The translations under genes were made by a program, and so were the position numbers. Positions 15,415 to 35,055 of a stretch of DNA of 64,000 nucleotides are shown one piece after another. The notes below the pieces were generated by a model that did not search any database, was not told the DNA's origin, and worked only from the letters and a program-made list of their open reading frames with translations. The number at the start of each line of letters is the position of its first letter. Positions within the stretch are counted from its first letter, which is position 1. This stretch comes from a virus (Duplodnaviria > Caudoviricetes): positions 1 to 64,000 of the IMG/VR virus record IMGVR_UViG_3300031853_000015; one strand, written 5' to 3'.

Positions 15415-15415
15415 A

Positions 15416-15604
15416 TTAATTTATATTATCAACCCAAGCCTAATCATCGGTCCAAGGAAATTCATCCATCCAATAACCATTAGCAAAACAGGACTATGTT
15501 TCTGTTAAGAGTTCCCATACTAGACGGGAACCCTTATGTACAGCAGTAATATAATTGTCCTTCTTATGAATGGAGGTTATTGCTTTTCCATCTTTATATA
15601 TCAT
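15416..15604 (-). CDS. small conserved tail-region protein (62 aa, 2 TAG)
   Basis: Manual translation: MIYKDGKAITSIHKKDNYITAVHKGSRLVWELLTET(Q)SCFANGYWMDEFPWTDD(Q)AWVDNIN-TAA. It fills the gap exactly. Confidence 0.75.
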
Positions 15605-15609
15605 AATAT

Positions 15610-17514
15610 TTAAGTATTAGCCCAAGGACCAAAATTATTAGTTTTAGCCCAATTTACAAATGTTACAATATCTGCAGCATTCACAGATTCTGTTCCTACT
15701 GTAATAATAGTTGCAGGATTTTTGATGGTTACTTTAGGAGTATCTACTACATTCTCTTTAGTTCCTATTAATTCTACATAAGGAGCCTCAAGTTTAATAG
15801 TATTACCACCTTCAATATTTATATTTCTAGCTCCATCTTCAAGACCTTCAAGTACTACATATCCAGCAGCAGTGTATTGTATATTCTAAACAGACACTGA
15901 AGTTCCTGTACCTCCTGAAGTGTCAGTAGCAGGACATTCATAAGCAACTGTAAGTGCTGCATCTATCTCTGCTTTTGTTGTAGGCATTGTAAGAGTCAGA
16001 GTATAAATACTTATATCTGAAGCATCATTAAATGTTACTACTTCAGCAGGTACTTTGGATTTCTTTTTACATTCCCAAGTATAAAGCTGGGTCTCTTCAT
16101 CATATACAAGATAGATGTATTTTCTGTCTGCAATAGCTACATTATTTCTTGAAATAACAGCTTTATTTTTATCCTTATATTCTGCAGGTTCAATTACAGA
16201 AGCAGCCTGTGGATTAATAACTTCAGCTACTTGAAGGTATCTTGTGCCAATAAGGTCATTAAGATGCTTTACAGCATCATGTTTCTTTTCATTAAGAGCA
16301 GATTCAAGTTCTCCTGGTGTAAGAGGTACAGTTACTGTAACTCCATTGGCATTAGCTGCAGGAGAATGTACTCTCTCTGAAGAATTAAGAGTAATGCTAT
16401 CAAAGCTTAAACTGCCTATTGCAGAGGAACTCAACTGATTTAAAGTAAAGTAAGGAGTTACATCACTTTCCTAAAGTTCAAATATCTTAGTATCAATTTT
16501 AGCAAGCTCTTTTTCAGTAGCAGGTCTCCAATAAAATTTAGTAAACAGAGTTTCTATTTGGAAATTACCTTTCTTTGAAATACCTGTTTTAATACCAAGG
16601 TCTCCATTGAAAGTATAAGCAGTTTTAATAATATCCTGCCAAGTAGCCTGTTCATCTCCTATTTTAGTTTGATTCTCAATGTGGAAAGCTTCCTCTATAG
16701 TATCATAGAAATCATCAGCAGCCTTTACATAAGCCAGTTTCTGAGTATTATCATAAGTTTTACCAGATACCATTTTATTTGAGGCTACTGGAGTTCTTGT
16801 AGCCATCTTTACAAGGCCATGTTTATTAAATCTATATTCTCCTGTATAAAGAGAAGCTTTATCTGTATTAAAAGTACCAAACTCTAACCCATTTCCACCA
16901 CCATGCTCAAACTTGATTTTATTCATATTACCACTCTTATCTGAACCAAATGGCTATAGAGCAATTCCACCATGAGCATTACATCTAATATCCCATGCTC
17001 TGGCTTTCATAGTAACATAGGACCAATATTCCTGTCCTGCAATTTCAGCTTTATTCTTAGTTGCATTAGCAAGGAAGTTTACATCCATATACTCATTATC
17101 AGAGAGATTTACTGGATCATTACTCTATATAGTAAGTTCCCTTAATTCAAGTTTAGCATGAATAGGTACATCATTACCATCATGAAAGTTAAGTTTTAAT
17201 TCCTATTGAGCAGCTTGTTTTGCAGCAGGGTCAGTTTCTGAAGCACCTCTGTGAGAAGAGATAAAAGAAACATCATCTCCTGGTTTTAATTGAATATCAT
17301 CTTCAGCTTCAATGTTAATTTTTCCTCCCTTACCATTTGCACTCTTAGCTGGAGAGCTGAGAGTTACATTAGGTTTAGTATTCACTTCAAGAATAGAATT
17401 TACACCTGAAGGAAGAGCTGCAGCTGAAGCATTTTCATCTGCTATTGTAAGGTTATATAAAGTAGATGTTCCTGTATTAGGATTAGTTACTCTTATTTGT
17501 TTAATTGTATTCAT
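15610..17514 (-). CDS. crAss-like tail protein, ~634 aa, TAG=Gln
   Basis: Fragments 17203-17514, 16471-16926 and 15886-16434 are in frame. Contains HGGIAL(Q)P...MNKIKFEHGGG.GLEFGTFN, recalled from crAss-like tail genes. Ends TAA 15610. Confidence 0.75.
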
Positions 17515-17529
17515 ATATTTGTATTATTT

Positions 17530-18207
17530 TTAAGATTCAATTTCTTCTGCTGTCCATGTTGCATCTGAAGGATTGAGATTATTAATAGTAATAGTTATAT
17601 TACCTCCTGCATATCCTATAGTATTTGCACTGGTGCTTATATTCATAGATATTTCTGATGCACCACTTTGAGTCAGACTTACTGTCACTCCTCCTATAGT
17701 AAAGGAAATTGTTTTTGCAGAAGTATCTGTATTAGCAGTTACTTCAATTACTACCAATACTTTATAAGCACCTGTTTTACCAAACTCTCCTAAAGTAGTA
17801 TAAGGAGATGCAGAAGTAATTTGTCCCTATACTGTATAGCCTGCAAAGGTAGTAGTATCTGTGGAGAGACTACAATTATTTAAGTTATCTACTGCAAGGG
17901 AAGCAGCATTACTTCTAAATACTATTCCTATCTTACCTCCATCAATAGGAATTATCAGATTATTAACCAATTGATTAGGATTGGATTCTAATAAATATCC
18001 ATAAATTGTATTAATATTCTAACCTTGCTGAGTGACAGCTATAGTATGTTCTTTATCTTGATATCCAGTTTTACTTCCTGTAACTTTTATAGAACTGGAT
18101 CTTGCTTCTCTTCCTTCCCAAGCATCTGCAGTTACTTTTATAGTACCATCGCCTGTACCATTTACTGGAGAACCTATGGAATTGTTATTCAATTTTAAAA
18201 ATTTCAT
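17530..18207 (-). CDS. BACON/Ig-like domain protein, ~225 aa, TAG=Gln
   Basis: Fragments 18019-18207 and 17530-17757 are in frame. Thr/Ser-rich beta strands (VTANT...AKTISFT, IAVTQ). Confidence 0.7.
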
Positions 18208-18218
18208 ATTACTTATCT

Positions 18219-19442
18219 TTATTGTGCTGTATTAACTGTTACATAAATAGAAGTCATCCTTATGCCATGATCTAATACATCTATTAATGTAAGATTGTTA
18301 TAATCTACCTCACTGTCTTTCACTGCATATATTTCATGGAATAACTCAGCAGGCATTTGTGCAGAAACTCCTTCAATATAATGCTCAATATAATTAGACA
18401 TTATAGTAGGACGGCTAATATTAAGGGTTTCTCCATCATGCTCATTTCTATATATAACATAACTATATCCAGTAGGTAGTGCACCATAACCTTGAACATC
18501 AGTTATTTTTGAATCAATTCTATCTATACCTGAAGTTAAAGTAACTGCTGTATTTCCATTATCTACATTAATATCATCTTGCAGAACACCATTTATGTAA
18601 GTCCTTATATTAGCAGTTATAGAAGAGTTATCTGATATATTCTAAATACGATCTGTATCAGTCATATCTTTTTCTGCTTGACTTACATTTATAGTAATGG
18701 TCTTATTAGTGCCTGTCTGAGTAAGTACTATAGTACCACTTCTTACAGTAGTTGTAGTAGTATTAGCTTCTCTATTAATAGTAACTGTATTATTTGATAT
18801 ATTTACACTCACCCAAGAAGGTTTACTTGTACAAGTATATTCTATAGAAGAATTATCATCTGTATATTTGGATATAATACCTGTAATAGTATCAGTTCCT
18901 GCAGTATTACTATATGTAGCTATAGTCTGTGAAGTACTATTATCACTTAAAGTAAAAATTGAAGTTCTTGCTACAGCAGCTTGAGTTACAGTAATTTGAA
19001 TAGTATTATTACTATCTTGCTGTGTTAATGTTATAGTACCTGTTCTGGTAGAAGTGTTAGAATTAGCTTCTACTGTAATACTGATACCTACCATATTATT
19101 ATTAGTATCCAGTACTTCACTACAAGTAATCCAGGATTCCTGACAATTTATAGAAAAATCCTATATATTACCATTCTTTGTAGAAGTAATATTAATTACT
19201 TGATTTAAACCAATATCTTGTACTTCAATTACTTTCTAAGTAAGTCCTTCACTTGTTTGAAATACATAAGCTGAAGCTGCCTGAATTATACTTATATTCT
19301 GCACAACACTTGTAAATCCTGTTTTTGAAGCAGTAATCCTTATATTATGTGTCTTTTGGACAGCAGCATCATTAGTAGGAATTGTTACTATAAATTGCCC
19401 AGCCCCACTTCCTGAGGCTGGATTAACTGTTAAAATCTTCAT
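18219..19442 (-). CDS. multi-BACON domain protein, ~407 aa, TAG=Gln
   Basis: Fragments 19236-19442, 18642-19094 and 18219-18401 are in frame. Repeated BACON signature (SWV..., ANxxTxxRxGTITLTQ, IxVTQ). Confidence 0.75.
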
Positions 19443-19444
19443 AT

Positions 19445-20464
19445 TTATTCAAGTTCTTCTGCAGACCATGATACTTCATCATCATTATCTGTATTTATAT
19501 TTATTGTTTGAACATTTCCCATTGCATTGAGAATTATAGAATTAATGGATGTTTCAAAGGTATAATCCCCTGAAGATAATTCTATAATAAGAACATCATT
19601 TTCATCTACAATACCATCGATGTTAAGTATTCCATCATCATCTACTACACCAATTAAATCAAGGATATAATCCTCATCCTAAGGCTCAGGTTCAGGTTCA
19701 GGCTCTGGAGTAGGTGTAGGTGTAGGTGTAGGTTCTGGTTCTGGTTTTTCCTCTTCATCTTCATAAGTAAAATAAATAGTATCCTCATCCTTTTCTTCAA
19801 GGGCTTCATACTCAGATTCTGTAAGAAATTCATGATGTATTCCATCTACTATTATAGAAGAACCATCTGTTCCATCTTTACCATCTTTACCACTTACTTT
19901 AAATTCAGTTTTAACTCCATTTATAACCCAATAACCATCATCACTGATAGCTATAGCAGTATTTCCTGTAGATATGATAGTGGCTCCATCTTTTCCGTCT
20001 TTTCCATCTTTTCCAGGGTCTCCTTTATCACCCTTATCTCCTTTATCTCCTTTATCTCCTTTAGGACCTGATGCAGTAAATTCTGTTTTTACTCCACCAA
20101 TTACCCAGTAGCCATCATCACTAATAGTAATCTCCTTACCTTCAGTACTAATTATAGTAGCCCCATCTTTTCCATCTTTTCCTTTAAGAGCTTCTAACTA
20201 CTCTGGAGTAAAATCATAATAAGTAAATGGATCTCCTTTATCTCCTTTATCTCCCTATGGTCCTTGAAGATCCATAGTGTCAATTATGGCTGTAATAAGA
20301 GTATTGAGGGTGGATAAATACACTCTATAGTTTACACCATTTCTGACTATAGTAAAGAAATCTCCTTCCTAAAGATTTGAGACTTCTTTAAACTATGAAT
20401 CTTTCTTAGAGTGTTGTTTAAGATATTCCTCAATTTTCTTATAGTCTTCTTGTGTGAAAAACAT
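19445..20464 (-). CDS. collagen-repeat / Pro-linker fibre-like protein, ~339 aa, TAG=Gln
   Basis: Starts MFFTQEDYKKIEEYLK. Contains GP(Q)GDKGDKGDPFTYYDFTPE(Q)LEALKGKDG, two GKDGKDGATII...DDGYWVI.GVKTEF units and a PEPEPTPTPTPTPEPEPEPEP linker. Ends TAA. Confidence 0.8.
19680..19750 (-). repeat. hexamer tandem repeats encoding a PE/PT linker
   Basis: ggttca/ggtgta/ggttct hexamers on + correspond to EPEPTPTPTPTPEPEPEP on -. Confidence 0.85.
19895..20185 (-). repeat. two imperfect coding repeats separated by GDK collagen triplets
   Basis: GKDGKDGATIISTEGKEITISDDGYWVIGGVKTEF and GKDGKDGATIISTGNTAIAISDDGYWVINGVKTEF. Confidence 0.8.
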
Positions 20465-20501: not shown

Positions 20502-20535
20502 TGCAAAGATACAACAATTATTTTAAATCCCCAAG
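20502..20535 (-). promoter_or_regulatory. Bacteroidota sigma-A type promoter for the tail/fibre operon
   Basis: Minus strand CTTG (20535-20532)-N20-TATCTTTG (20511-20504)CA; matches the TTTG-N19-21-TAnnTTTG consensus. Confidence 0.8.
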
Positions 20536-21258: not shown

Positions 21259-21292
21259 CTTGATAATATAAAATAAAACAGTTACCTTTGCA
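21259..21292 (+). promoter_or_regulatory. Bacteroidota sigma-A type promoter of the RNA polymerase gene
   Basis: CTTG (21259-62)-N20-TACCTTTG (21283-90)CA. It overlaps the track's TTG start, so the real start is more likely ATG 21327. Confidence 0.8.
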
Positions 21293-21326: not shown

Positions 21327-24300
21327 ATGAATAGAGCATATTGTTATAGCCCTCAAGCTATTGATAAAAAACTGGCAAATTATATGAGTACTCGTCCTTA
21401 TGCTATAGCATGGACTCCTGGATTTATAGCTACTCTAAGAGGTGCTTATGATCTTGCCAATGGTTTCTCTGAAGAACAGGGTAAGGTTAATCCTATGTGG
21501 TCTTTAGATATAGATACTGAAGATTATGATGGAGACAGTGTACAAGCGGATAACCTTTATAATATAGCACAAACTTTAGCAGACTTTAGATTTGAGAAAA
21601 AGAAGGAACAAGCAAATGCTATAAATAATTTTAATGAAAATAGAACTGAAATATGGACAACTATTTCAGATAATTATTCTGATTTAAATACATTTTATCA
21701 GAGAGCTTCTCAACTTTCCTTCTATTTTATTCAAGCTGTAGATAATTATATAGAACAACAAAGGTTGGAGGGTAAAATATTCACTAGAAAGCAGATTATT
21801 GAAGGCATTCCTTTGGAAGATGAAGATGGTCATTATGTTATGTCTAATGGAAAGCCTATGATGGCAATAGATTCTGATAAAATATTTAGTGCTGTATTCA
21901 ATAGGTTTATGGAGGATTATTCTGAAAGAATGGATGATCCTAATACTAAAGAAGCAGCAAAGAAAGAATATTATCATAATGAGTATCAGAAGATATTTAA
22001 TCCTAAAGTATGGGCGGCTTTATTAATGGCCTCTAAAGCCCAGCTTAAACAAATGGAGGGATTAAAGGTTAGTCTTACTGATAATAGTGCTTCTGAAGTA
22101 GATTTAAGTACTCTTAATGATAATGATTTATCAGACTTATTTATTGCAGAAGAATCTGTCAGGGAAGGTTGGCAAGTAATTACAGATTGTTTATCTGCTT
22201 ATGGAAATCTTTCCAAAGAAGTTAGAAAGGCTTTGAGTTATATACCTTTATTAGATGAAAAAGGGCAAGCTTTAGAAGATGACTTAGGTTACGATATAAG
22301 AATGAGTTCTATAACTGCTTATCATGATTTAATGGATTTACTTAGGAATTGTCGAAGTAAATCCAAAATGATGAAACTTATTGAGAGAAGTCAAGGATTT
22401 AGAAGCCTTTATGATAAATTAGTTAATAATGAGGTTCTTCAGTCCCAATTATATAATAACTTTAGAAAAACATCCCAACTTTATGTACAGATACAATGGG
22501 AATGGAATAAAATTAAGTTTTATGTTTTAAATAAAACTAAAGGAGAGCATTCTGTAGGAAATTATTTATTTAGTATAAAATATCGTCCTGCAGGAAGTAG
22601 TATAGCTGCTTCTAGTAGAACTCATTGGAGCCAAGCAGATCTTGATTCTTTAAGCAACCTTTTAAAACAGTTTGAAGATAAATATGATTCTGATGGGAAG
22701 TTAACCTATAGTTTCTGGAAAGAAAGGGCAACTCAACAGGCAACCCTTCTACGTAAAGTTTTTAATGCTTTAGGTATAGCATATACTGATAAGGCCCTTT
22801 CTACTTTATTAGATAATAAAAAGAATCTTTCCGAGGTTGTTAAACAGCTTGCAGGTTTAAGCCAACATGGAGGATTAAAAAGTGAGAGAGCTGACACTGA
22901 AGGATACAATTTTTATGCTTGGCTTACTTATAAAACTAAAGAACAGGAAAAGGGTGATACTCAAGCTAAAATTGAAAAGATCATCACTAAACTTGAAGAG
23001 AGTGGTAATGGAATTGTTTATGAAAATAAATGTAGAACTGTAAATGGTAAAGGACAATCTGTTACTTACTATGGTGATGTACAGCCAAATTTTATGGGAG
23101 ACTTATTAGGCAAAATTCAATCTTTTGCTCAAGCATTTCCAGAAGAAAGGGAAGAAAGTAGAAAAGAATTTAAAGAGTGGTTACGTAATAAATATTTTTC
23201 TAGTTCTCAATTTTGCACAGATTTTGATGCAGAGGGTAATCCTAAATCTTCCAGTAATGTTAAAAACTTTTTATTAAGAACTCTTTGGGAAGAAGCTAAT
23301 GCTGATGTAACCAATGCTAGAATAGAAGCAACTAATAAGCAAAGAAAATTAGATAATGAGGCACCTCTTCCTTATGTTACTGATATGTTTGATGATAATA
23401 GCCTTACCTCTCAGTTTCGATTTATGAGAGTTGTAACAGGTAAGTATCAACAGACAGTCATTCCTTTTGAAAACTTTACTACTAAGCAACATTTTGAACA
23501 ATTAGTAGGTTCTTATTTTGCATTAGACACTCAATCGAATCAGCAAATGCAGGAATTTGTTTATGTTCCTGTATTTGTATTAGGAGACAGTGGAGTATGT
23601 AAAGTTCTTAAAATAAAAAGAAAATCTACTTTTGATGATTATCAAGATGATAAATTTAATGGAGATTCAGTTGTTGAAGAACTATATAACCTTTATGAGT
23701 CAGAACTTAGAAGAATGACTCTTTTCCAAAAATTTATTGAACAGAATAATAAAAAACATATTAAAAATAATCCTAATATACTCAAAACTTCCAAGAAATT
23801 TACAATGCTCACTTTCTTAAATGAAGAATTTAAAGGCAGAGACTTTAAAACTCTTGGAAAACAAGAAGTAAAACAGGCTATTAATAAGTACTTAGAAAAA
23901 GGATTTGCCGCATTTTTAAAAGTAGGAGAAAATACAGGAGCTCTCAAAGTAGATAGTTCTGGAAAACTAGGAAAGAATCCTATGTATCAAGATATATGTA
24001 GGATAGCAGATCCTAGGAAAGAAGCCCATTCTAAAACTCCTGCACTTAGGGAAAGGCTTAAAGAGCTTTATTATAATGTATATCTTTCCAATCTTTTACA
24101 GTATCAGATTTTTACTGGAGACTTAGGATATTACGAAAGTGTAAAGGAGTTTCAGAAGAGATATAAGGAAGTTCATGCTCCAGGAGAAGTATTGGATGTA
24201 AATGCTACTTGGAAAGGTAAGGAAGTAGTTAAGGCAAATGCTCAAGGACTTAAAACTCAAAAGACAATATATTTTGAAGATATTGGAGTCAGTGTAGAAG

Positions 24301-27300
24301 AAAATAATAAGGAGCTTGCTGAAGTACTTCTTAAATTACATTCCTCTGATAGAGCTGCAGCTGAAAAAGCCATCGCTGAGGGTATTTTAGAGCCTAAGAA
24401 AGGAATAGAAGAGGATGAAAGACAAAAGCGACTTAAAGAACTTTTAGGAAGTAATTATAATGTATATTTAAAGTTCATTACTACTCCTAAATCTGAAGTA
24501 ACACGTGGTTCAAGTGGTAGTTCTCAAACAGATGGTCAAGGTTTTAGGCATATAGATTCTTATAGAAAGATAGAAATAATGAGAGGTACTTGGAGTAGCA
24601 ATCCTCTTAAGGAAGTATTGTATCAAGAGGTCTCAACTATTAATGAAGATTGTATAAAGAATCATCGCAATCCTACTCCTGAAGAACTTGATAGAATTCA
24701 AGCCTTCCATGTGACAATAATGCCTTTAAAGCCTTACCTATTTACTATGGAAAAAGTACATATAAATGATGGAAAGACTGATGATAATCTGTTTGTTCCT
24801 GTACAACATAAATATGCAGAAGCTATATTAATTCCTTGCCTGCTTCCTGTTGGAAGTAAACTTAGAGAAGTAGCTGAGTATATGGGAGAGAATAATATTG
24901 ATTTGATATGTTCTGATTCTGTAGTAAAGGTAGGTATGTGGGGACAAACTGATATTGAGGAAAAGAGTTCCACTGACATTTCTAGCTTTGTTAATGAGGC
25001 AAAGAAGAATATTAGTAAACTGCCTTCATCAGTTAAAACTGATAGCAGTCCTCTTAGAATAATGAGTATTGAAAAGGGTCTTGATTTTAATATTTCTGTA
25101 GGAGAAACCTATAATGTCAAGTTAGATGATAAAAATGCTCAATATCATATTCTTGGGTATGAACAAGATGGAGATCAACATCTTTCTAAAATATGGTTTA
25201 CATCTTCTGAAGCTCCCAATAAAGTATCTAGTTTAGTAGGAAGCACTCTTGCAGAATTTATTGATGCTGCAGGTAGTCATAATCCCATTAAAGCTAATAC
25301 TAACAGTACTATAAATATTAAGGATAATCTATCAAAAGCTGTTATACATGAATTGAATTATGAAGATTATAGAATTCAATCTAATGTTCCTGAACATATA
25401 AATGTAGAAAGGGCATTGGGTACTCAGATAAGGAAACTTATTATGGGTAATATTAATATGTTTTCTAAGGATGTTTATGGATACTTAAAAGATAAAAATG
25501 GAGAAGATATATCTTTTAGACTTACTAAAGGAGGAAGTAAAATGAAACTTACTGGTAGAAATCTAGTTTCTTTATATACTTCTCTTATAGTAGCTAATAT
25601 GATGCAATCTTTTGCTAAGTTTAAAAGAAATATTGAAAATGAAAAGAAATTAAGTACCCTTCTTACTTCTGCTATTGTTAATAATGATAGGTACTCTTTA
25701 CATCAATTGCTAGACATAGCAGTTAATGATGGCGAGTTTGCTACTCCTTTATATGAAGGTTCTATAGAGCATGATACTATAAGTATGATAGCCAGTATCT
25801 TCAGAAAAGAAGTTAATAAGCAGGATATGAATGGAGGTAGTGCTGTACAAGTTTCTGATTGGGGAATTACTGCTAAAGAAGAAGTTACAGGTACTGAAAG
25901 ACCTCTTAAATTTGTAACGGATGTAAATAATGAAAATGTATTATATGCAGAAATTGAAATTCCTTTTAACTTTACTTATATCAATTCTGATGGTATAGAA
26001 GTGGCTTTGGACTTTAATACTTATTGTAACCCTGATGGAACTTTTAAATTAACAGGTAATACTATTGATATAAAAGGAGTCAAAGTAGCAGAAACTAAAA
26101 TAGAGCATGATTTTCCTGGCATACTAGACATAATTGCATATAGAATTCCTTCAGAAAGATGTTACTCAATGCTTAATTGTAGAGTAGTCAGATGTTCCAA
26201 TATGACAGCTGGAGGTACTATAAGAGTTCCAGCCCAAGGTACTACTATTGCAGGTTTTGACTTTGATATTGATAAGTTATACTTATTAAGAAGAAGTTTT
26301 GTTAAACGAAGAGTAGCTGTAGAATCTGCATATTCAGGAGCCGAAAAGTATGATATTTTTGCTAAAATATATGCTATGGATGCTGAAAGACAAAGAGTTC
26401 TTGAAGCTAAAGATAAGTCTCAAAAAGCAAATATTATTAATGCTCAAGCAGAGAAGACTTTAAGAGAAATGAATCAAGATCCTGATGATTATGCTTCAGT
26501 AGAATCTCTTTGGGAAGAACTTTTTATAAATCTAGAAAGTCCTTATACTACAGTATATGAAGAACTAAGTAATGAAGATAAAGATTATTTAGAGAATAAG
26601 CTCATAATACCAGGAGAAAGATTAAAAAATGTAATTTTCTTAAGCAATCTCTTTAATGAGGAGAAAAGACGTAAAGTTTCAGAAATCTCCGATGATAAAA
26701 TTTACAAAGGATCTGAAGTTTTTCATATGTTATTTGATGAACTGAATAATGGTCAAATAAGTAAAAAAGGTTGGAAAATTTATAATAAATTAGACTATTC
26801 TCAGGAATATTATGATGAGGAACAAGTAAGAGAAGATGAAGACTATATTCCTTCTTCTGCTATAATATCTAAGTTAAGAGCTATAAGAGAAGCTTCAGGA
26901 GAATATCACTATGAAAAAACTGCCAAAGGAAAAGTAAAGAAGGTTTATGATAAGGCTTTAGCTGAATACTGGAATACTATGATTGAGCAGAATCCTTATA
27001 TGGAAGGTGAAGATGCTTATGATAAAGGCAAACTCTTTGAACAAGCAGCAAAAGAACTTGGCTTATGGAAAGAGATTGAATATAAGGAAGAACTTGAAAA
27101 TTATGATTTTGATAAAGGAGTAACACAGAATAGTAGGTCCTCTAGAAATAATCTTATCTTTGAGTTAATGAGACAGAGACTTATGGACCCTGAGACTCTT
27201 AGAGATAGGTTAACTCCGGGTGGATTTGATAATTCTAGAAATGCTGCTGCATATTTGAAAAAGCTTCTACATATTAATGAAGAACAAGATGCTGCAGATC

Positions 27301-30300
27301 CAAGTACTCTATTATTCTATAATCAGCTTAATCAAGTAGCTGCTAAATTAATTGGTGTATTTGCTAATCAAAGCACTAATCACCAATTATCATCTATAAT
27401 AAGAAGTTTAGATTTGAGAGAACCTATTCTTTTCGATGGTATGATTGATGCTAAACTTATTAAAAGCACAGAAGCCTTGGAAGGACTAGAAGATACTGAG
27501 AAAGAAGAAAAAATAGGGCGTAGTTTATTATCTAAAATTATACAGTTGAAGGATGGTACTATAGTAGATATAGATTTAAACCTTGCAGAATTCCTTGCTG
27601 CTTCTGTAGATGCTGTAAAGGATCCTGTATTGAATTATCTTAACTTTAATACCACTACTGCCTCAGTAGGAGCCTTACTTGCTAGAATGGGCTATGCTAC
27701 CAAGGATATAGGACTTTTATTTAATCAGCCTATAATTAAAGAGGTATGTGATATTATTCAAAATAGTGGTAATACATTATCCTTTAATAGTGTAAAGAGT
27801 GATATTATTAAAAAATATGGTACTTATGATGAATATAAAAAGATTGCAACTGATGTAACATCTGAAACATTAGAAGACACTATAACCAGATATATAGATG
27901 TTTCTGAAAAAGCTCCTAATGCTCAAGAGGCCTTTCAATCTCTAAAGCAAGAGAAAGATTATATGCAGACACAATTAGCTGCATTGAAAATATTTGATCA
28001 GGCCTTCAAAGCTTCCAGAGAATTAAACAATTTTATAAATACCACTAAATTCACTGCGGCAAATGCTGTAGGCAGTACTTTAGGCTTCTTTTATAATCAG
28101 CAATATAAAGTAGAAGATTATGTTAATCAATCAGACAACATGTTAAAGATGGTTATTTATGAATCTCTTAAGAATGCTCAGGAAATACAAGAGGGTTCTA
28201 AAGAAGTACAAGATAAGTCTCTTAACACTAAAATACCAAGCAGTCTGGTTAATGATAGAGAAGCTTATATAAAATCTCAAATAGAAAATCCTTTTGCTTT
28301 TGAGCAGTGTATGTATGATTTAAATAAGGAATTTCTTAAAATATTAAGTAAGTACTATCCTTATGATAAAGCTATTTATAAAAATAGAAGAGAGGTATTA
28401 AGAGATTTTTTAGCTTATACTAGAGTATTGGATGCAGAAACTATAGATTATGCCCATAGAGAAACTATGCAGCATATATTAAGTTCCACTGATAGTGCCT
28501 TTAATCCTACAGCTATTTATGTCAATGAAGCAGGTGAAGAAATATTGATAGATACTGATAAAAAGGATCTTGATGGTAATCCTATTAAGCGTCCCTTAAC
28601 TAATAGAGAATATTATTTATATCAATTTCCTATTGAATTGTTTAATATGGAGGGAGTTCCCAGAATTGATGCTTTAAAAGAGAAATATCTCAAATTTACC
28701 TATTCAACACATACAGACACAACTACTGGAAAAGTTAATGCACAATTAAATATATCTGTAGATTTAGCTGTAGAACAAACAGATAAAAATACTTTTACTA
28801 ATCTTTGGGCACAGTTAGCTTCTCAGCATTCAGACCCTCTTCATATAAACCAGATAAAAGTAGACTTTATAAAAAAGTATATAAAACTTCATTATCTTAT
28901 TCCAATGGATATTACATTGAAGAATTTAGAGCGTGCTAAAGGAGAACGTTATGAAGCTTTAAATAAAAAATATGAAGACTATGAAGAAAAATTGAAAGAT
29001 TTCTTAAAAGATATACTGTCCTCAGAACAGTTAGAAGAAACACTTACATTTGCTAATGCAGAAACCTTTATAAACGTTTATAATGTAGATAGAATTAATC
29101 TTCCTGCTGAGGAACAAGAAGCATTAAATAAAGAAATCCAAAAGAAAATAAATATGGATAATATATGTAATAAAGTAGCTTTAGGACTATATTTTCATAA
29201 TTATTATAGAACTGGTTTTGGTACAGGTCCTTTTAGCTTCACACAATTTACTCCTATTGAAGTGAAAAATCTTATTGAAATAGGAGAGGGGGCAGACAGA
29301 ATGCCTTATCTAGATTATATAAGGCCTGATAATTTGGAAACCTTAGCTACTGCAGCAATTAAAGGCAGGTATCCTAGAAGTGCTGTTGAATTTGCTTATA
29401 TGTATGCTTTAAATCATACAGATGATTACAAACTTGTCACACCTATGCCTTCTACAGGTAATCAAACATATGCCTCCTATTTTGTAGATGCTTATGGCTA
29501 TGCTACTTCAAAGTTTTCTATTGATATACACACTGCTGAAAAAGATATTAAGGAGGCTGATAAGAAGTTTGTTATGGCTGTAGATAAAGAAACAGGAGAT
29601 TTTAAGGTACATCCTGTTATTAGAAGGGGTGGACAAATTTATGTAGCCACTATAGATGGAGAATATAATTTTACTGGTAATATATTTGATTCCTCCAGGC
29701 ACATAGTTACTTATATGAATGTACCTATCTTAGGAAAGAAAAATGTTTCTACTACATATGCCTCTACTTTAGATGAAGCTTTAGCAATAAAGAAGGGAGA
29801 TGCAGAAGTGCTTACAGCAATTGAACAATCTATAAGTGATACAATTAAAGAAGATATTATAAGAAGACAACTGGAAGAAAAAGGAGAAGAAGTTGATGTT
29901 GATGATCTTCTACATCAAAGTGAAGAGGTACCCTCGGAAACTGTTGAGGAAAATCCAATAGGGGCTAACTTTGCAGAAGATGATTCTTATACTGAAGAAG
30001 ATGTAGATGCTCTTATGGAGAGAATATCTGAATGTAATCAAGTAAATGAAGATTTCTTATTGGAATATGTTTTAAAAACTTATGATGAAACAGCTCCTGA
30101 AGATCAAGAGGTTGTAAGAGAAAAAGCTGTACCTGCTATTAAAGAAAAATTAAATAAAGCAGTAGAAGAAGGTCTTCCTGCATCTATGCAAAATACTAAG
30201 GTAGCAGAAGCTTATAAAAAGCAACTTCTAATTGAACAATTAGCAAACAGATTAAAAGCCGATGTAAAAGCAGGAAGAATTGAAGTTTATACAAAATTAA

Positions 30301-30320
30301 CAAAAGAAAAAATATGCTAA
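21327..30320 (+). CDS. crAss-like (virion) DNA-directed RNA polymerase, ~2997 aa, no in-frame TAG
   Basis: Uninterrupted ORF. YRIPSE...PAQGTTIAGFDFDIDKL carries the DFDID catalytic motif of the phi14:2 gp66 family (~26259-26273); also FLAASVDAVKDP and HKYAE. Confidence 0.9.
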   Translation: MNRAYCYSPQAIDKKLANYMSTRPYAIAWTPGFIATLRGAYDLANGFSEEQGKVNPMWSLDIDTEDYDGDSVQADNLYNIAQTLADFRFEKKKEQANAINNFNENRTEIWTTISDNYSDLNTFYQRASQLSFYFIQAVDNYIEQQRLEGKIFTRKQIIEGIPLEDEDGHYVMSNGKPMMAIDSDKIFSAVFNRFMEDYSERMDDPNTKEAAKKEYYHNEYQKIFNPKVWAALLMASKAQLKQMEGLKVSLTDNSASEVDLSTLNDNDLSDLFIAEESVREGWQVITDCLSAYGNLSKEVRKALSYIPLLDEKGQALEDDLGYDIRMSSITAYHDLMDLLRNCRSKSKMMKLIERSQGFRSLYDKLVNNEVLQSQLYNNFRKTSQLYVQIQWEWNKIKFYVLNKTKGEHSVGNYLFSIKYRPAGSSIAASSRTHWSQADLDSLSNLLKQFEDKYDSDGKLTYSFWKERATQQATLLRKVFNALGIAYTDKALSTLLDNKKNLSEVVKQLAGLSQHGGLKSERADTEGYNFYAWLTYKTKEQEKGDTQAKIEKIITKLEESGNGIVYENKCRTVNGKGQSVTYYGDVQPNFMGDLLGKIQSFAQAFPEEREESRKEFKEWLRNKYFSSSQFCTDFDAEGNPKSSSNVKNFLLRTLWEEANADVTNARIEATNKQRKLDNEAPLPYVTDMFDDNSLTSQFRFMRVVTGKYQQTVIPFENFTTKQHFEQLVGSYFALDTQSNQQMQEFVYVPVFVLGDSGVCKVLKIKRKSTFDDYQDDKFNGDSVVEELYNLYESELRRMTLFQKFIEQNNKKHIKNNPNILKTSKKFTMLTFLNEEFKGRDFKTLGKQEVKQAINKYLEKGFAAFLKVGENTGALKVDSSGKLGKNPMYQDICRIADPRKEAHSKTPALRERLKELYYNVYLSNLLQYQIFTGDLGYYESVKEFQKRYKEVHAPGEVLDVNATWKGKEVVKANAQGLKTQKTIYFEDIGVSVEENNKELAEVLLKLHSSDRAAAEKAIAEGILEPKKGIEEDERQKRLKELLGSNYNVYLKFITTPKSEVTRGSSGSSQTDGQGFRHIDSYRKIEIMRGTWSSNPLKEVLYQEVSTINEDCIKNHRNPTPEELDRIQAFHVTIMPLKPYLFTMEKVHINDGKTDDNLFVPVQHKYAEAILIPCLLPVGSKLREVAEYMGENNIDLICSDSVVKVGMWGQTDIEEKSSTDISSFVNEAKKNISKLPSSVKTDSSPLRIMSIEKGLDFNISVGETYNVKLDDKNAQYHILGYEQDGDQHLSKIWFTSSEAPNKVSSLVGSTLAEFIDAAGSHNPIKANTNSTINIKDNLSKAVIHELNYEDYRIQSNVPEHINVERALGTQIRKLIMGNINMFSKDVYGYLKDKNGEDISFRLTKGGSKMKLTGRNLVSLYTSLIVANMMQSFAKFKRNIENEKKLSTLLTSAIVNNDRYSLHQLLDIAVNDGEFATPLYEGSIEHDTISMIASIFRKEVNKQDMNGGSAVQVSDWGITAKEEVTGTERPLKFVTDVNNENVLYAEIEIPFNFTYINSDGIEVALDFNTYCNPDGTFKLTGNTIDIKGVKVAETKIEHDFPGILDIIAYRIPSERCYSMLNCRVVRCSNMTAGGTIRVPAQGTTIAGFDFDIDKLYLLRRSFVKRRVAVESAYSGAEKYDIFAKIYAMDAERQRVLEAKDKSQKANIINAQAEKTLREMNQDPDDYASVESLWEELFINLESPYTTVYEELSNEDKDYLENKLIIPGERLKNVIFLSNLFNEEKRRKVSEISDDKIYKGSEVFHMLFDELNNGQISKKGWKIYNKLDYSQEYYDEEQVREDEDYIPSSAIISKLRAIREASGEYHYEKTAKGKVKKVYDKALAEYWNTMIEQNPYMEGEDAYDKGKLFEQAAKELGLWKEIEYKEELENYDFDKGVTQNSRSSRNNLIFELMRQRLMDPETLRDRLTPGGFDNSRNAAAYLKKLLHINEEQDAADPSTLLFYNQLNQVAAKLIGVFANQSTNHQLSSIIRSLDLREPILFDGMIDAKLIKSTEALEGLEDTEKEEKIGRSLLSKIIQLKDGTIVDIDLNLAEFLAASVDAVKDPVLNYLNFNTTTASVGALLARMGYATKDIGLLFNQPIIKEVCDIIQNSGNTLSFNSVKSDIIKKYGTYDEYKKIATDVTSETLEDTITRYIDVSEKAPNAQEAFQSLKQEKDYMQTQLAALKIFDQAFKASRELNNFINTTKFTAANAVGSTLGFFYNQQYKVEDYVNQSDNMLKMVIYESLKNAQEIQEGSKEVQDKSLNTKIPSSLVNDREAYIKSQIENPFAFEQCMYDLNKEFLKILSKYYPYDKAIYKNRREVLRDFLAYTRVLDAETIDYAHRETMQHILSSTDSAFNPTAIYVNEAGEEILIDTDKKDLDGNPIKRPLTNREYYLYQFPIELFNMEGVPRIDALKEKYLKFTYSTHTDTTTGKVNAQLNISVDLAVEQTDKNTFTNLWAQLASQHSDPLHINQIKVDFIKKYIKLHYLIPMDITLKNLERAKGERYEALNKKYEDYEEKLKDFLKDILSSEQLEETLTFANAETFINVYNVDRINLPAEEQEALNKEIQKKINMDNICNKVALGLYFHNYYRTGFGTGPFSFTQFTPIEVKNLIEIGEGADRMPYLDYIRPDNLETLATAAIKGRYPRSAVEFAYMYALNHTDDYKLVTPMPSTGNQTYASYFVDAYGYATSKFSIDIHTAEKDIKEADKKFVMAVDKETGDFKVHPVIRRGGQIYVATIDGEYNFTGNIFDSSRHIVTYMNVPILGKKNVSTTYASTLDEALAIKKGDAEVLTAIEQSISDTIKEDIIRRQLEEKGEEVDVDDLLHQSEEVPSETVEENPIGANFAEDDSYTEEDVDALMERISECNQVNEDFLLEYVLKTYDETAPEDQEVVREKAVPAIKEKLNKAVEEGLPASMQNTKVAEAYKKQLLIEQLANRLKADVKAGRIEVYTKLTKEKIC

Positions 30321-30321: not shown

Positions 30322-33300
30322 ATGAGTAAATGTGTATTTAATTTTGATGCTAAAAATGAATTTACTGGGGAAATAACTCAAAGTATACTTTGGTAGAGTT
30401 TGAGAACCCACTTCAAAGATAATTATGTCATGGCAAAAGCTTATTATAAGATTGCCACAGATGAAGAATTTTTGAATTTAGCAAAAGACCGTCTTTCATT
30501 CAATGATCAAGGGGACCCCACCCTTGAATCATTGATGGAAGCACTGGGGGAAAACATAGATAAAGAAAACTTAAGAGGCATTATTGAAAAAGGTTTAGGT
30601 GAAGGTAAGCCTATGGATTATAGTACTGCTATATACAAAATATAGGCATACAATAAAACATATCCTGATTCTAAATTTATAGCCTCTTTTGAAGAAAATA
30701 ATGATGGTACTGTTACTATTAAAGCTCTAGACAATACTGCTAAAAACAAAGCTAAATTATTAAGCAAAATTAAAGATAGGGCTTTAATAGACAGAATGAT
30801 GTATTATCTTAGAAATGCAGGAGTAGATGTTAAATTCTTAGAAGATGGAACATAGTCTGTTTATAGTACTGAAAATGCTGAAAAAAATGCTTAGGGGCTT
30901 TATGAACTTATCTAGCTATCTAATACCTCAAATAGAAGTATTCGTGAAGATTTAACTGAACATTGCGGAAATTTAATTATTGACATATTAGGAAAAAACC
31001 ATCCTTTAGTTTCAAGATTAATGACTGCCTTATAGAATAAAGACTTCTATCAAACTATTATAGAAAATGAGGTTCCTAACTTTTTACAGCATAGATTTTC
31101 CAATGAAGGAGATGCCAGGGTTTTAGCAGGATGGTTAATAGGCAAATAGCTAGAAATGGGAGCAGACAGAGCTATGAAAGCTGATAGTTTCTTAGGAAAA
31201 ATTTTTAAAGTAGTAGGAAACCTCATTAATAGAATGGTAGATCTTGTTAAATATATTTTAAAAAAGATTCCAAGTAAAGAGTATGCTGCATCTTTGAGAC
31301 AAGTTAATGATATAGCCTTATAGATTGCTCAAGGATTTGCTTCCCCTAATTTTCAAGGAATATCTGAAGAAGAGATAGAAAATATTAATACTAGTTTTAT
31401 CAAAGATACTATTAATCCCTTAAAACTTTCTACTAATGTTAGGGTTACTAAAAAAGCTTTAGATGAGATTAACAGGTTTGTATAGAGAGTGAAACTTTAT
31501 GATACTAATTTTTATAAAGGCCTGCAAAAAGACTTATCTAAAGTAGAAGGATTTATTGATTTTACTAAAGTACTCTCTGCAGATAAAACTATTATGGATG
31601 AAGAAGCTATGGTAGCTTTAGTAAATGCTGTACAAATGCTAATCTCAAACCATAATACTATTGTAGAAAGATTAAATAAAATTGATTTTACTGCAGAAGC
31701 TGATTTTACTAAGAATATGGGTAAATATGCTAACTATATAAGAAGTGCTTTGGCCTATGCTTATACTGCAGAGAATATTGTTAAATTAATAAAGCAATAT
31801 ACAGTAAATGATAAAACTCTTCCTTCTGAAGTTGTATTAAATGATTTTACACAAATCAAAGTACCAGCTAAATATGGAGGAATGACTTATGTAGACCTAA
31901 CAGAAATTAATAAAAGATTAGACACTCTAGTTAACTCTGCAGGAGGTATGTTCCGAGTTGTAAAAGCAAAGTAGAAAGCTTATGTTTTGAGATTCCTTAC
32001 TGAAGCTATAGGCAGTCCTCAAATAGAAGTAGCTAGTAGAGTAATAGGATTTAAAGGTGCTGTAGAGGATGAACATATTTTGACCATAGAACAGATTATG
32101 GATGAGTTAGGCAATGATTTAAATTGGTGGGAAAGATATTTTTCTTCTATGTCTAACAATCCTGATATTTGGGGATAGGCCTTTGATAAAATAACTAAGA
32201 TAGCCAAACTTAATGCTAATAGATAGTATTTAAAAGACCGTGATGAATTAATATTAATAGAGCAGTATGCTTAGGATAAACATGTAAAGTTTGAAAAACT
32301 CTTTGATAGAGATGATAAGAATATTCCTACAGGATATTTAATAGGATATATTGATTATAATGGAGACCGTTTAGGTGTAGACTGGGCCAAATGGCAAGAA
32401 GACTTTGATGAATTTACTAAAAGGAAAAAGGACGAATTTCAAAAAATATATCAAAAGGAATTAGCCAAAGCAAGAGAAGCTAAAAGAGCAGTACTATGGA
32501 ATGCTTTTTTTAAGGAAGCGTATAAAGAATGGCATAAAGAGAATTCTGTAACAATTGTAGAAAGAAATACGGAAGGAAAGGTTATTAGATATGTTAATAT
32601 GCCTAATCCAAGTAAGGAAAAATATGGTTCTGATAAATATGATAAATTATCTAAAGATGAGAAAGATGTATTAGATGAGTATCTTAAATGGAAAATCAAA
32701 TAGGATAAAAAGCTTCCTAAAGGATCTACTTTAACTTTTAGAGTCCCTTAGATTTTAGGTTCTACTGTAAATCAAATACGTAATAGAAGACTTACAAAAC
32801 AGAATCTTCCAAAGGCAATACTTACTACTTTGATGTAGAATATATGTGACACTGTTGTAAAAAATGCAAATGATATAGATTTTGGTAGTGATCTTACAGT
32901 AAATGCACCAGATGTATTAAATGATAGATTGGCATATGAAGATGATAAAGTCGAAAGGATTCCTTTGTTTTATATTAATAGATTATCTGAAGAACATAGA
33001 ATAAGACTATCTACAGATCTTATAGGAAGTAGTATGGCCTATTCTGCTATGACAAACCAATATAATTATCTACAAAAGATTAAAGATTCTTTGGAACTTA
33101 GTCATGACTAGATGAAGGATAGGATTGTTAAAGTAAGAGGAAAGGTAGGGCCTGATCAGGGGCAATCTAATGCATATAAGAGAGTTACTACCTTTATGGA
33201 GAAAGAATTATATGGCTTGTAGTTTGGTTATAAAATGTCTGGTATGCAAGCAGCTCTTGCAAAATTAGTATAGTTGTCTACAGCATTGGCTTCAAGGATG

Positions 33301-34998
33301 TTTCTTGGAGGTAATATTCCAGGTGGTGTTGCCAATACAACAATGGGATTCACTGAAGTGCTAAAAGAAGCTGCTGTTGGAGAATATTTTGATCTAAAAG
33401 ATTGGGGAAGTGCCATAGCAGAATATTTTGGAACTGATAAAGATAATAACCCCGAATATAATTTCCTTACAGATAATTTGTTTGTAGATAGCTTCAGATA
33501 GATTAAACGAAATAAAGTAAATCAATTTTCAGAATATTTTGATGCCTTTGGAGATAATAACAGACAATTCCGATATAATAACTATTTTGGGGAAAAGTAT
33601 TTTAAATTTAAAGGAAAAGAATATTCTGTAGATTTAGAAAATCTTAAAATAGCTGATATATTTTATCATAATGCTTTTGCTCCTTATAGCATAGGAGACC
33701 ATTTTATGCAGTTAATACCTTTCATAGCATTAGCAAAAAGTATCAAATTGCATTATCTTGAAGATGGAAAAGTGGTTACTAAAAGTATGTATGATTGTTA
33801 CTAGATTCTTCATGAAGGGGACTTAAGAGAGGAGCATATAAGTTCCAGAGGTAGATTTGGACTACCTAAACGTAATTATGTAAAAGACAAGGCAAATGTA
33901 TAGCTTGTAGAAGATTTAGATAAGAAAATATCTAATATGGATGCTCTCATTGCAGCTATAGAAAATCATATTTCAAGTTTAAATAGGTTTGGTTTTAAAT
34001 CTTTTGATACTACTCCTTTTCAAAGTATAATTGATGAATATCACATAGAAGTCAATGATGATGAGTCTAGTCCTGTAAATAAGGAAAGTATATAGAAGCT
34101 TAAAAATGAACAATCCAAGTTAAGACAGTAGTTGCATGATTTAACTTGGCAGTCTGAAGATGAAAATGCTTTTAAACTTAAGGCCAGAGAAATAGGAAAC
34201 AGATTACATGGTATTTATAATACATAGGATAAAGTAGAATTTTAGTAGAATATTCTAGGCAATTCTATATTAGCCATGCGTGGTTATATGTTAGGAATGG
34301 TAGAAAGACGTTGGGGCAGTAGTAAATATAGCTTAGCCTTAGGTTAGGATGTTGAAGGAAGTGAAAGAACTTTTTGGAAAACTTGGTTTGCTTTTTTGGG
34401 AGGCAATATGACTTTTAAACACATGGTTGCTCTGTAGTTATATCTCCCTTTAGTTAGACCTCAATATGCTAAAAAATTAATGAAAGACTATGGTTTCAGT
34501 GATAATCAATTTTATAACATGAGAAGACATCTTATAGACTGGCTTGTTATATTAAGCACTAGTATATTAGTTGGAGGAGTGTTTAGACTATTTGATTATT
34601 AGGGCATATTAGGAAGGCCTTCAGATAGTGATCCTGATGATTATTATCCTAAAAATAAGGATGATTATGCAGCAGCTTTGGCCTATTATTTTATATCTAG
34701 ATTATATATGGAACAGGCTGCATATAATGAACTTACAGCTGCTGCATAGGTAGAAGGTCCTAGTGTTTTCTCTTTAATAGGTTCTAATGTAGCAATGCTA
34801 GATAATGCTCTTACTATACTTAATCTTGCTATAAATGGAGATGAGTATAAACAAGGACCTTTTGCAGGCCAAAGTAAAGCTAAGATTAAATTTCTTAAGT
34901 ATATGCCTATATTTCGCTGGTGGTATACTGTAGATCAAGATCCTAGAAAATCTGCAGAAGCTTTTGAAGTTAATAGAGGAGGAATTAGTAGAAGATAA
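30322..34998 (+). CDS. large virion (cargo-type) protein, ~1558 aa, TAG=Gln
   Basis: ATG 1 nt after the RNAP stop. Fragments 30400, 31489, 31987, 32929, 33274 and 34795 share the frame. First TAG at codon 25; ends TAA. Confidence 0.75.
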
Positions 34999-35017: not shown

Positions 35018-35055
35018 AAAGAGGAAGGGAAAATCTCCCTTCCTCTTATTTTTTT
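35018..35055. terminator. bidirectional intrinsic terminator between convergent giant genes
   Basis: AAGAGGAAGGGA-AAATC-TCCCTTCCTCTT followed by a T-run. Confidence 0.85.

What the first reader, a model, noticed from the sequence alone, without database searches (positions are those of the whole stretch)
21327..30320. A 9-kb RNA polymerase gene with no amber codon, in the middle of the recoded late region
About 3000 codons, many of them Gln, and all Gln are CAA/CAG. Equally large neighbours (2723, 2470, 1684, 1558 aa) are broken by TAG, with longest standard-code fragments of only 94-345 aa, so this absence is very unlikely by chance. The gene has the same host-type promoter as the recoded operons. 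Inference: the polymerase is exempt from the code switch and can be made before or without the suppressor, for example as a second, non-packaged pool or to build up ahead of virion assembly. Alternative: recent replacement from a standard-code relative. I do not know whether this exemption has been described.
Basis: partly seen in the sequence, partly recalled or inferred. Interest (0 to 1): 0.8.

Follow-up and report, generated by a model that had tools for sequence, protein, structure and literature searches.

The report
Amber-free RNA polymerase in recoded crAss-like phage
In a cattle-gut crAss-like phage that reads the stop codon TAG as glutamine in its virion genes, the giant RNA polymerase gene is kept free of TAG by selection, so it can be translated without the phage's suppressor tRNA, probably because it belongs to the earlier 'middle' class of genes.

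Summary
ORF 21327-30320 (2997 aa) has 0 TAG among 127 Gln codons. The 21 other long genes of the recoded region use TAG for 36% of Gln (P about 1e-25). TAG is common out of frame in the gene, so the avoidance is translational.

The protein is the catalytic virion RNA polymerase of Steigviridae-type crAss-like phages: DFDID motif, and a profile hit to phi14:2 gp66 (PDB 6VR4) at E 1e-49.

It is not a recent import. Codon usage matches the neighbours, and the RNAP tree matches the tree of the downstream partner gene.

Seven of the eight genomes in the window's recoded clade have a TAG-free RNAP (755 Gln codons in total) directly followed by a TAG-rich partner. Conserved Gln columns switch between CAA and CAG but never show TAG. 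This indicates purifying selection.

The exemption is not universal. In four recoded relatives (L086, L064, L004, L031) the RNAP carries TAG at 41-52% of Gln.

In crAss001 the orthologous gene gp49 is a middle gene (published RNA-seq), which is the simplest explanation. Less expected is a code boundary inside an apparent operon: the partner gene starts 1 nt after the RNAP stop and has a conserved TAG at codon 25.

I rate it a new variant of the known pattern in which recoding is confined to late genes. Interest is moderate.

The parts
21283..21292 (+). Host-type (Bacteroidota -7 box, TAnnTTTG) promoter of the RNAP unit: TACCTTTGCA, 44 nt before the ATG
   Evidence: TAYCTTTGCA has 7 sites in the window against 0.61 expected. 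A TAnnTTTG box lies 30-44 nt before the ATG of all twelve RNAP genes examined (the window's and eleven relatives'), recoded or not.
21327..30320 (+). Catalytic virion RNA polymerase gene (2997 aa), TAG-free; DFDIDKLY metal-binding motif at aa 1645-1652
   Evidence: 0 TAG among 127 Gln codons. 37% identity to the RNAP-position proteins of Steigviridae cr106_1 and cr126_1. A profile of 12 orthologs hits PDB 6VR4_A (phi14:2 gp66) at E 1.1e-49.
30322..34998 (+). RNAP partner gene (1558 aa), ortholog of the crAss001-type 'putative RNA-polymerase subunit'. It starts 1 nt after the RNAP stop and is recoded (31 TAG of 68 Gln positions).
   Evidence: 30% identity over about 1190 aa to the annotated subunit of cr106_1 and cr126_1. 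TAG counts.
30394..30396 (+). First amber codon of the partner gene (codon 25), shared by five genomes of the clade
   Evidence: Sequence. TAG at codon 25 in the window, L083, L084, L085 and L087.
35019..35047 (.). Two-way terminator hairpin closing the RNAP-partner unit and the converging late block
   Evidence: 12-13 bp stem followed by a T run on both strands. No terminator-like site on the + strand at the RNAP-partner junction.
35062..43233 (-). Converging giant virion (cargo-type) gene (2723 aa), positional ortholog of the crAss001 late gene gp47, recoded (62 TAG)
   Evidence: 23% identity over 1796 aa to the minus-strand giant gene after the subunit gene in cr106_1. TAG counts.
5577..20464 (-). 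Recoded tail-fibre-like module that separates the RNAP unit from the TAG-free plus-strand genes at 1544-5526
   Evidence: PHROG tail-fibre hits for the 339-aa gene. A homolog of the 2470-aa protein lies upstream of TerL in Suoliviridae cr272_1. TAG is 14-56% of Gln.
20502..20511 (-). TATCTTTGCA promoter of the diverging recoded tail-fibre block

Best explanation
What it is. The gene encodes the catalytic virion RNA polymerase of a Steigviridae-type crAss-like phage that reads TAG as Gln. The phage carries a tRNA(CUA) at 73894-73966 of the 83.5-kb contig, next to tRNA-Gln(UUG).

What selection does. In this lineage selection removes every in-frame TAG from the polymerase gene, while all surrounding virion genes have accumulated TAG. 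The polymerase is therefore the only large protein of the region that host ribosomes can complete before the suppressor tRNA has built up, or without it.

Most likely reason. The polymerase belongs to the middle temporal class, as its ortholog gp49 does in crAss001. The virion, tail and lysis genes are gated by amber codons.

Consequence for timing. The polymerase, the suppressor tRNA array and the late operons all carry the same host-type promoter. In this model the genetic code, not the promoter, separates early from late protein synthesis. One RNAP-partner unit would yield polymerase at once, and the partner protein only after the code switch, because the partner has an amber codon at position 25.

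Shown here: the identity of the gene, the absence of TAG, its frame specificity, its conservation under heavy synonymous turnover, and the lack of any sign of import.

Inferred: the timing of translation, and the need for polymerase before the switch.
For: Statistics: 0 of 127 Gln codons are TAG, against 36% in 21 neighbouring genes, P about 1e-25. Out-of-frame and antisense TAG are at normal density.

Clade conservation: in the window's recoded clade (100% support in both trees) 7 of 8 genomes have a TAG-free RNAP. That is 755 Gln codons over 2.26 substitutions per site of tree length. Each is directly followed by a partner gene with TAG at 10-51% of Gln. Per-genome P ranges from 2e-5 to 1e-35. 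The same arrangement occurs in L056, in a separate recoded clade whose sister L064 has a recoded RNAP.

Synonymous turnover: at 20 columns where Gln is conserved, 17 show CAA/CAG turnover among the TAG-free RNAPs and none shows TAG. All 9 such columns of the partner gene include TAG.

Not imported: codon usage and GC3 are as in the neighbours. The RNAP and partner trees are congruent, with path lengths from the window of 0.43 vs 0.48 to L084, 0.83 vs 0.99 to L087 and 1.10 vs 1.22 to L086.

Temporal class: in crAss001, gp49 (catalytic subunit) and gp50 are middle genes and gp47 is late (PMC8375218). In phi14:2 the RNAP gene g066 is in the middle class and is transcribed by the host RNAP (bioRxiv 10.1101/2020.03.07.982082). 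In two recoded relatives, L063 and L074, the RNAP and partner genes are TAG-free and the gene in the position of gp47 is recoded, exactly matching those classes. L074 is crAss001-like by DNA, 83% identical to PhiCrAssBcn18; L063 groups with it in the RNAP tree.

Gene position: in standard-code relatives the RNAP is the penultimate gene of the replication-gene strand.
Against: Four recoded relatives (L086 inside the window's own clade, plus L064, L004 and L031) have RNAPs with TAG at 41-52% of Gln. Synthesis before the switch is therefore not an absolute requirement for this enzyme.

The partner gene is a middle gene in crAss001 but is recoded here, so the crAss001 classes do not transfer one to one.

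The promoter of the RNAP unit cannot be told apart from those of the recoded operons, so nothing in the DNA shows earlier transcription.

There are no time-resolved expression data for this phage. The one RNA library that holds it gives only contigs and cannot rank genes.
Confidence: 0.6

Rival explanations
1. Yield rather than timing. Each amber codon costs some premature termination through competition with host RF1, so TAG is removed from genes whose full-length output must be high or exact. On this view the polymerase is the extreme case of that rule, and its time of synthesis does not matter.
For: TAG share differs widely between genes. It is lowest in the presumably most abundant capsid-type genes: the putative major capsid gene 60801-62309 has 1 of 19, gene 56556-57698 has 1 of 16, and gene 62336-63535 has 2 of 17.
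Against: Equally long virion proteins carry 24-62 TAG. The polymerase is expected to be a low-copy virion protein. The capsid-type genes keep at least one TAG, whereas the polymerase has none in 755 Gln codons over seven genomes. L086 and L064 tolerate 56-64 TAG in the same enzyme.
Confidence: 0.15
2. Translation in a state without the suppressor. The polymerase must be made in cells where late functions stay off, for example a carrier or persistent infection in which only early and middle genes are expressed. It therefore has to be readable by the host code alone.
For: crAss001 persists in culture with high expression of early and some middle genes (PMC8375218). The gene is fully readable under the standard code.
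Against: Nothing in this genome points to such a state. No function is known for a free polymerase without its virion partners. This reading overlaps largely with the timing explanation.
Confidence: 0.1
3. Recent replacement of the gene by a copy from a standard-code relative. On this view TAG simply has not yet had time to accumulate.
For: Standard-code and recoded lineages are interleaved in the RNAP tree. L031 shows that TAG can reach 51% of Gln on a short branch of 0.29.
Against: Seven genomes spanning 2.26 substitutions per site share the TAG-free state. Conserved Gln codons are saturated with CAA/CAG changes but never show TAG. The RNAP and partner trees agree in topology and branch lengths. 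Codon usage and GC3 are as in the neighbours.
Confidence: 0.03
4. Chance, or a DNA-level avoidance of the TAG trinucleotide that has nothing to do with translation.
For: None found.
Against: P is about 1e-25. TAG is at normal density in the other two frames and on the antisense strand.
Confidence: 0.01

Closest known systems
Stop-codon recoding confined to late (structural and lysis) genes of phages, including crAss-like phages (Ivanova 2014 as cited; Yutin 2021, PMC7886860; Borges 2021, bioRxiv 10.1101/2021.08.26.457843; Peters 2022, PMC9523058)
   Same: TAG is read as Gln. A phage-encoded tRNA(CUA) is present. Replication genes stay in the standard code and virion genes are recoded. The proposed role is to time late protein synthesis.
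   Different: Here the standard-code gene is a virion component that sits between two recoded blocks. The code boundary falls inside an apparent two-gene operon. The passages I read in these papers do not single out the RNAP; they report RNAP subunits broken by TAG in other recoded crAss-like phages.
phiCrAss001 gp49/gp50/gp47 (Steigviridae) and their temporal classes (Shkoporov 2021, PMC8375218)
   Same: Same three-gene arrangement: catalytic RNAP, then partner, then a converging giant gene. The catalytic subunit is a middle gene there and TAG-free here. The giant gene is late there and recoded here.
   Different: crAss001 uses the standard code, and its gp50 is a middle gene, whereas the window's partner gene is recoded. 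The window's RNAP is only about 25-27% identical to crAss001-type RNAPs. Here it is separated from the replication block by a 15-kb tail-fibre module.
phi14:2 gp66 virion RNA polymerase (PDB 6VR4; Drobysheva 2021)
   Same: Single-chain RNAP with a DFDID catalytic motif. The profile match has E 1e-49 over most of the chain. A host-type promoter lies in front of the gene.
   Different: The window's protein is about 800 aa longer. The single sequence does not detect 6VR4. phi14:2 is not recoded.
Coliphage N4 virion RNA polymerase
   Same: A giant packaged polymerase that is injected to transcribe early genes (from established knowledge and the review PMC10136315).
   Different: A different polymerase family (T7-like), with no recoding. 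This is a functional analogy only.

Membership tests
crAss-like virion RNA polymerase (phi14:2 gp66 / crAss001 gp49 type) | DFDxD metal-binding motif of the catalytic double-psi beta-barrel | tested here: met
   GFDFDIDKLY at aa 1643-1652. G1643, D1645, F1646, D1647, D1649, K1650, L1651 and Y1652 are invariant in the 12 orthologs aligned; F1644 and I1648 are nearly invariant.
crAss-like virion RNA polymerase (phi14:2 gp66 / crAss001 gp49 type) | Sequence homology to the solved enzyme | tested here: met
   A profile of 12 orthologs hits 6VR4_A at E 1.1e-49, profile positions 258-1913. The single sequence alone finds nothing.
crAss-like virion RNA polymerase (phi14:2 gp66 / crAss001 gp49 type) | Conserved gene neighbourhood: RNAP, then co-oriented partner subunit, then converging giant virion gene | tested here: met
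crAss-like virion RNA polymerase (phi14:2 gp66 / crAss001 gp49 type) | Presence in the virion and RNA synthesis activity | not testable with these tools
   Known only for phi14:2 and crAss001.
Phage with TAG-to-Gln recoding limited to late genes (code 15 'dual-coded' genome) | In-frame TAG in conserved virion genes, aligned with Gln in relatives | tested here: met
   At the window's partner-gene TAG columns the other genomes most often have Gln (105 cells: CAA 54, TAG 33, CAG 18; the next most frequent is Lys, 18). At the L086 RNAP TAG columns Gln is the commonest residue (32%).
Phage with TAG-to-Gln recoding limited to late genes (code 15 'dual-coded' genome) | Phage-encoded suppressor tRNA(CUA) | tested here: met
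   ARAGORN finds anticodon CTA at 73894-73966 of the contig, next to tRNA-Gln(TTG).
Phage with TAG-to-Gln recoding limited to late genes (code 15 'dual-coded' genome) | Early and replication genes free of in-frame TAG | tested here: met
   The plus-strand genes at 1544-5526 have 0 TAG. Upstream replication genes of the recoded relatives are TAG-free.
Middle temporal class of Steigviridae | Transcript appears after early genes and before late genes | not testable with these tools
   Inferred from the crAss001 ortholog only. The RNA library X3 gives contigs without timing.

The most novel reading that the evidence does not exclude
The genetic code acts as a translational timer inside a single operon. 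One host-transcribed mRNA gives the catalytic polymerase at once. Its partner subunit is held back by a conserved amber codon at position 25 until the suppressor tRNA has accumulated. The free polymerase would then have a job of its own in the producing cell, such as host-independent transcription of phage genes from replicated genomes, before it is joined by its partners and packaged. The position of the code boundary (before the RNAP, between the RNAP and its partner, or after the partner) would be an evolvable regulatory setting that differs between lineages.
Probability: 0.25. Interest if true: 0.75.

Novelty: new variant of a known kind. Interest (0 to 1): 0.55.

Why it matters
Recoded phages are thought to use the stop-to-sense switch to hold back late proteins, but direct evidence on which proteins must escape the switch is scarce.

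Selection has marked one such protein very clearly here. A 3000-codon virion enzyme is kept amber-free across a whole clade, while the gene that touches it is recoded. Sister lineages have placed the boundary one gene earlier or one gene later.

This gives a natural series for testing the timing hypothesis. It also bears on the question raised for crAss001: why the polymerase subunits are made at different times, and whether newly made polymerase works in the producing cell.

There is a practical consequence too. Gene callers that assign one code per block will misplace this boundary.

Tried and rejected
- PHROGs and Pfam scans of the RNAP, the partner and the 2723-aa protein gave no family.
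- phmmer of the single RNAP against PDB gave only chance hits.
- A single-protein scan of IMG/VR found no relative. A second alignment scan added only standard-code loci.
- The bare 8-mer TANNTTTG is at chance frequency (87 found, 86 expected), so only the extended motif was used.
- No extended promoter motif or + strand terminator lies at the RNAP-partner junction. The chance-level 8-mers at 29681 and 29966 were not counted as promoters.
- The position and strand of the suppressor tRNA in five relatives does not separate genomes with a recoded RNAP from those with a TAG-free one. It lies on the strand opposite to the RNAP in all four relatives where it was found; no tRNA was found in the 75%-complete record of L063.
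- Use of the codons read by the phage's own tRNAs (GAA, GGA, ACA, CAA, CCA) does not differ between the RNAP and the recoded giant genes. This gave no independent clock.
- A search for a TGA-recoded parallel (L060, L045, L049) found none.
- Sequencing runs: the stretch is held by bovine gut metagenomes and by one metatranscriptomic library. That library's contigs cover pieces of the RNAP, the partner and the tail-fibre block alike, and cannot show timing, level or transcript ends. The listed RNA contigs begin at 21333 and end at 20502, near the two diverging promoters, and none is listed for the spacer between them. This is at most a weak hint and I do not use it.
- phAss-1 (PMC10607447) has a similar genome size but proved to be an unrelated recoded phage.
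- No structure or complex prediction was run, because homology settled the gene's identity.


Full report
**1. The observation**

Under the standard code the window holds one outstanding ORF, 21288/21327-30320 on the + strand. Under TAG=Q the surrounding short ORFs fuse into genes of 811, 2470, 1558, 2723, 1156 and 1684 aa and others.

Codon counts give 0 TAG, 88 CAA and 40 CAG for the long ORF; from the ATG at 21327 there are 127 Gln codons. Every other long gene between 5577 and 63535 uses TAG for 5-83% of its Gln positions.

Pooled over 21 recoded genes the TAG share is 0.363. This gives P(0 of 128) = 9e-26 and Fisher p = 3e-23.

The TAG trinucleotide is not avoided as DNA. It occurs 112 and 69 times in the two other frames and 153 times on the antisense strand, at the same densities as in the neighbours. 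The absence is therefore real, far beyond chance, and specific to the reading frame.

The whole contig is 83,484 bp. It carries a tRNA with anticodon CTA at 73894-73966, beside tRNA-Gln(TTG).

**2. What the gene is**

PHROGs, Pfam and a single-sequence PDB search gave nothing. tblastn against phage genomes then found crAss-like phages only. The best hits were the Steigviridae cr106_1, cr126_1, DAC15/17 and Kolpuevirus, followed by crAss001-type phages whose hit is annotated 'putative RNA polymerase'.

The alignment with cr106_1 and cr126_1 is 37% identical over the full length and includes GFDFDIDKLY. A profile of 12 orthologs hits phi14:2 gp66 (PDB 6VR4) at E 1.1e-49. The gene is the catalytic virion RNA polymerase.

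The next gene (30322-34998, 1558 aa) is the ortholog of the annotated 'putative RNA-polymerase subunit'. The converging 2723-aa gene matches the giant minus-strand gene that follows in relatives.

**3. Architecture**

In standard-code relatives the polymerase and its partner are the last two genes of the strand that carries the replication genes (DNA polymerase, thymidylate synthase and so on). They converge on the virion block.

In the window a 15-kb minus-strand recoded module lies between the TAG-free plus-strand genes (1544-5526) and the polymerase. It has tail-fibre-like PHROG hits, and the 2470-aa protein has homologs upstream of TerL in a Suoliviridae phage. The ~130-kb relatives L088 and L089 have the same layout.

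The polymerase has its own TACCTTTGCA box 44 nt before the ATG. The motif TAYCTTTGCA occurs 7 times in the window against 0.61 expected. Five of the other six sites precede other transcription units: four before recoded operons and one before a small TAG-free ORF. The sixth lies inside a gene. The tRNA array has a similar TATATTTGCA box.

The window's RNAP gene and all eleven orthologs examined, twelve genes in all, recoded or not, have such a box 30-44 nt before the ATG. This agrees with the published finding of host-type promoters in front of gp66 homologs.

The RNAP stop and the partner's ATG are 1 nt apart, with no + strand terminator at the junction. A two-way terminator follows the partner gene.

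**4. Relatives**

Seventy-eight IMG/VR loci and ten assembly loci found through protein search were screened. Eleven of them are TAG-recoded, which makes twelve recoded genomes with the window. They fall into three boundary classes.

| Class | Genomes | Notes |
|---|---|---|
| (a) RNAP TAG-free, partner recoded | window, L083, L084, L085, L087, L088, L089, L056 | RNAP 0 of 92-127 Gln; partner 8-43 TAG |
| (b) RNAP and partner both TAG-free, converging giant gene recoded | L063, L074 | L074 is 83% identical in DNA to crAss001-like PhiCrAssBcn18 |
| (c) RNAP recoded | L086 (64 of 122), L064 (56 of 121), L004, L031 (60 of 117) | |

In the RNAP tree and in the partner-gene tree the window falls in the same fully supported clade of eight recoded genomes. 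Topology and branch lengths are near-identical. Seven of the eight have a TAG-free RNAP. That is 755 Gln codons over 2.26 substitutions per site.

In the partner tree L086 is nested inside the clade. The TAG-free state is therefore most simply ancestral, and the recoding of the L086 RNAP derived.

**5. Selection or lack of time**

Gln is conserved at 20 columns across the clade. At 17 of them the seven TAG-free RNAPs differ between CAA and CAG, and none has TAG. At all 9 such columns of the partner gene at least one genome has TAG.

L031 reached 51% TAG on a branch of 0.29, so TAG spreads fast where it is allowed.

The RNAP's synonymous codon usage is as close to its neighbours as they are to each other, and its GC3 of 0.176 lies within their range.

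Together with the congruent trees, these results exclude a recent import and show purifying selection against in-frame TAG in this gene in this lineage.

**6. Why**

The direct consequence is that the polymerase can be completed by ribosomes without the suppressor.

Published RNA-seq of crAss001 places gp49 (catalytic subunit) and gp50 in the middle stage and gp47 in the late stage. The authors wondered whether gp49 and gp50 act in the producing cell (PMC8375218). In phi14:2 the RNAP gene is a middle gene transcribed by the host polymerase.

Class (b) genomes reproduce the crAss001 classes exactly. The simplest reading is that the recoded domain tracks the temporal class and the polymerase is a middle gene.

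The window's clade adds a twist. The partner gene is recoded although it shares the unit, and it has a TAG at codon 25 in five genomes and an amber within the first 60 codons in all eight. If the two genes share an mRNA, the code rather than the promoter would split their synthesis in time.

I give this timing explanation about 0.6. The main reservations are these:
- Class (c) lineages do without the exemption.
- The promoters do not differ between the RNAP unit and the recoded operons.
- There are no time-resolved data.

A yield-based explanation (TAG removed where full-length output matters) fits the low TAG share of the capsid-type genes. It fits poorly with the TAG-rich giant cargo genes.

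**7. What is known**

The following are all published:
- recoding limited to late genes in crAss-like phages;
- suppressor tRNAs;
- the lysis-timing hypothesis;
- the idea of low-amber and high-amber domains.

Those papers mention RNAP subunits broken by TAG in other recoded crAss-like phages. I found no description of three points:
- the catalytic RNAP kept TAG-free under selection next to a recoded partner;
- a code boundary inside this operon;
- the boundary shifting between sister lineages.

My literature search was limited to the held library.

**8. Verdict**

Two premises need correcting. The 'late region' premise is wrong, because by homology this is a middle gene in its own transcription unit. 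The implied generality is also wrong, because some recoded relatives do recode the RNAP.

I rate the finding a new variant of a known kind, of moderate interest.

Noticed in passing
window 30394-30396; L083, L084, L085 and L087 at codon 25 of the partner gene: The amber codon at position 25 of the RNAP partner gene is shared by five genomes, and all eight clade members have a TAG within the first 60 codons. It looks like a conserved early gate.
   Followed up: partly
window 30309-30320 and orthologs: Every RNAP ortholog aligned ends in Cys as its last residue (C2997 is invariant in 12 sequences). Most partner proteins have Cys at residue 3-5 (M-S/A-x-C). The meaning is unknown.
   Followed up: no
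G000 contig 74968-80121 (L001): A 1717-aa minus-strand gene has only 8 TAG against 43 CAA/CAG. This may be a second partly exempt gene or a mosaic.
   Followed up: no
window 60801-62309, 56556-57698, 62336-63535: The putative major capsid gene and two neighbours have very low TAG shares (1 of 19, 1 of 16, 2 of 17 Gln), but never zero.
   Followed up: partly
L088 3686-5470 and 5499-7748: In the 132-kb relative, two minus-strand genes (594 and 749 aa) in the recoded block upstream of the RNAP are TAG-free (0 of 14 and 0 of 20 Gln). The L089 ortholog of one of them has 5 TAG.
   Followed up: no
L004 14946-15593, L031 14325-14972, L074 4542-5087: In three relatives the RNAP is split into two large ORFs by an inserted ORF of about 180-215 aa. 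This looks like an intron or intein-type insertion, as described for crAss-like phages.
   Followed up: no
L191 2334-9911 and 10001-17338: A standard-code contig carries two tandem RNAP-size genes with identical Gln codon counts, next to a DDE transposase. This is either a duplication or an assembly artefact.
   Followed up: no
protein P0002: The identical RNAP protein is on record on a contig of 131,969 bp. The 83.5-kb genome held here is therefore probably incomplete and lacks most of the replication module.
   Followed up: no
window 20635-20838 (+) and 20905-21136 (-): Two small ORFs lie in the spacer between the diverging promoters. One is a 67-aa Cys-rich plus-strand ORF with its own TATCTTTGCA box and a terminator. 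The other is a 76-aa minus-strand ORF with one TAG.
   Followed up: no
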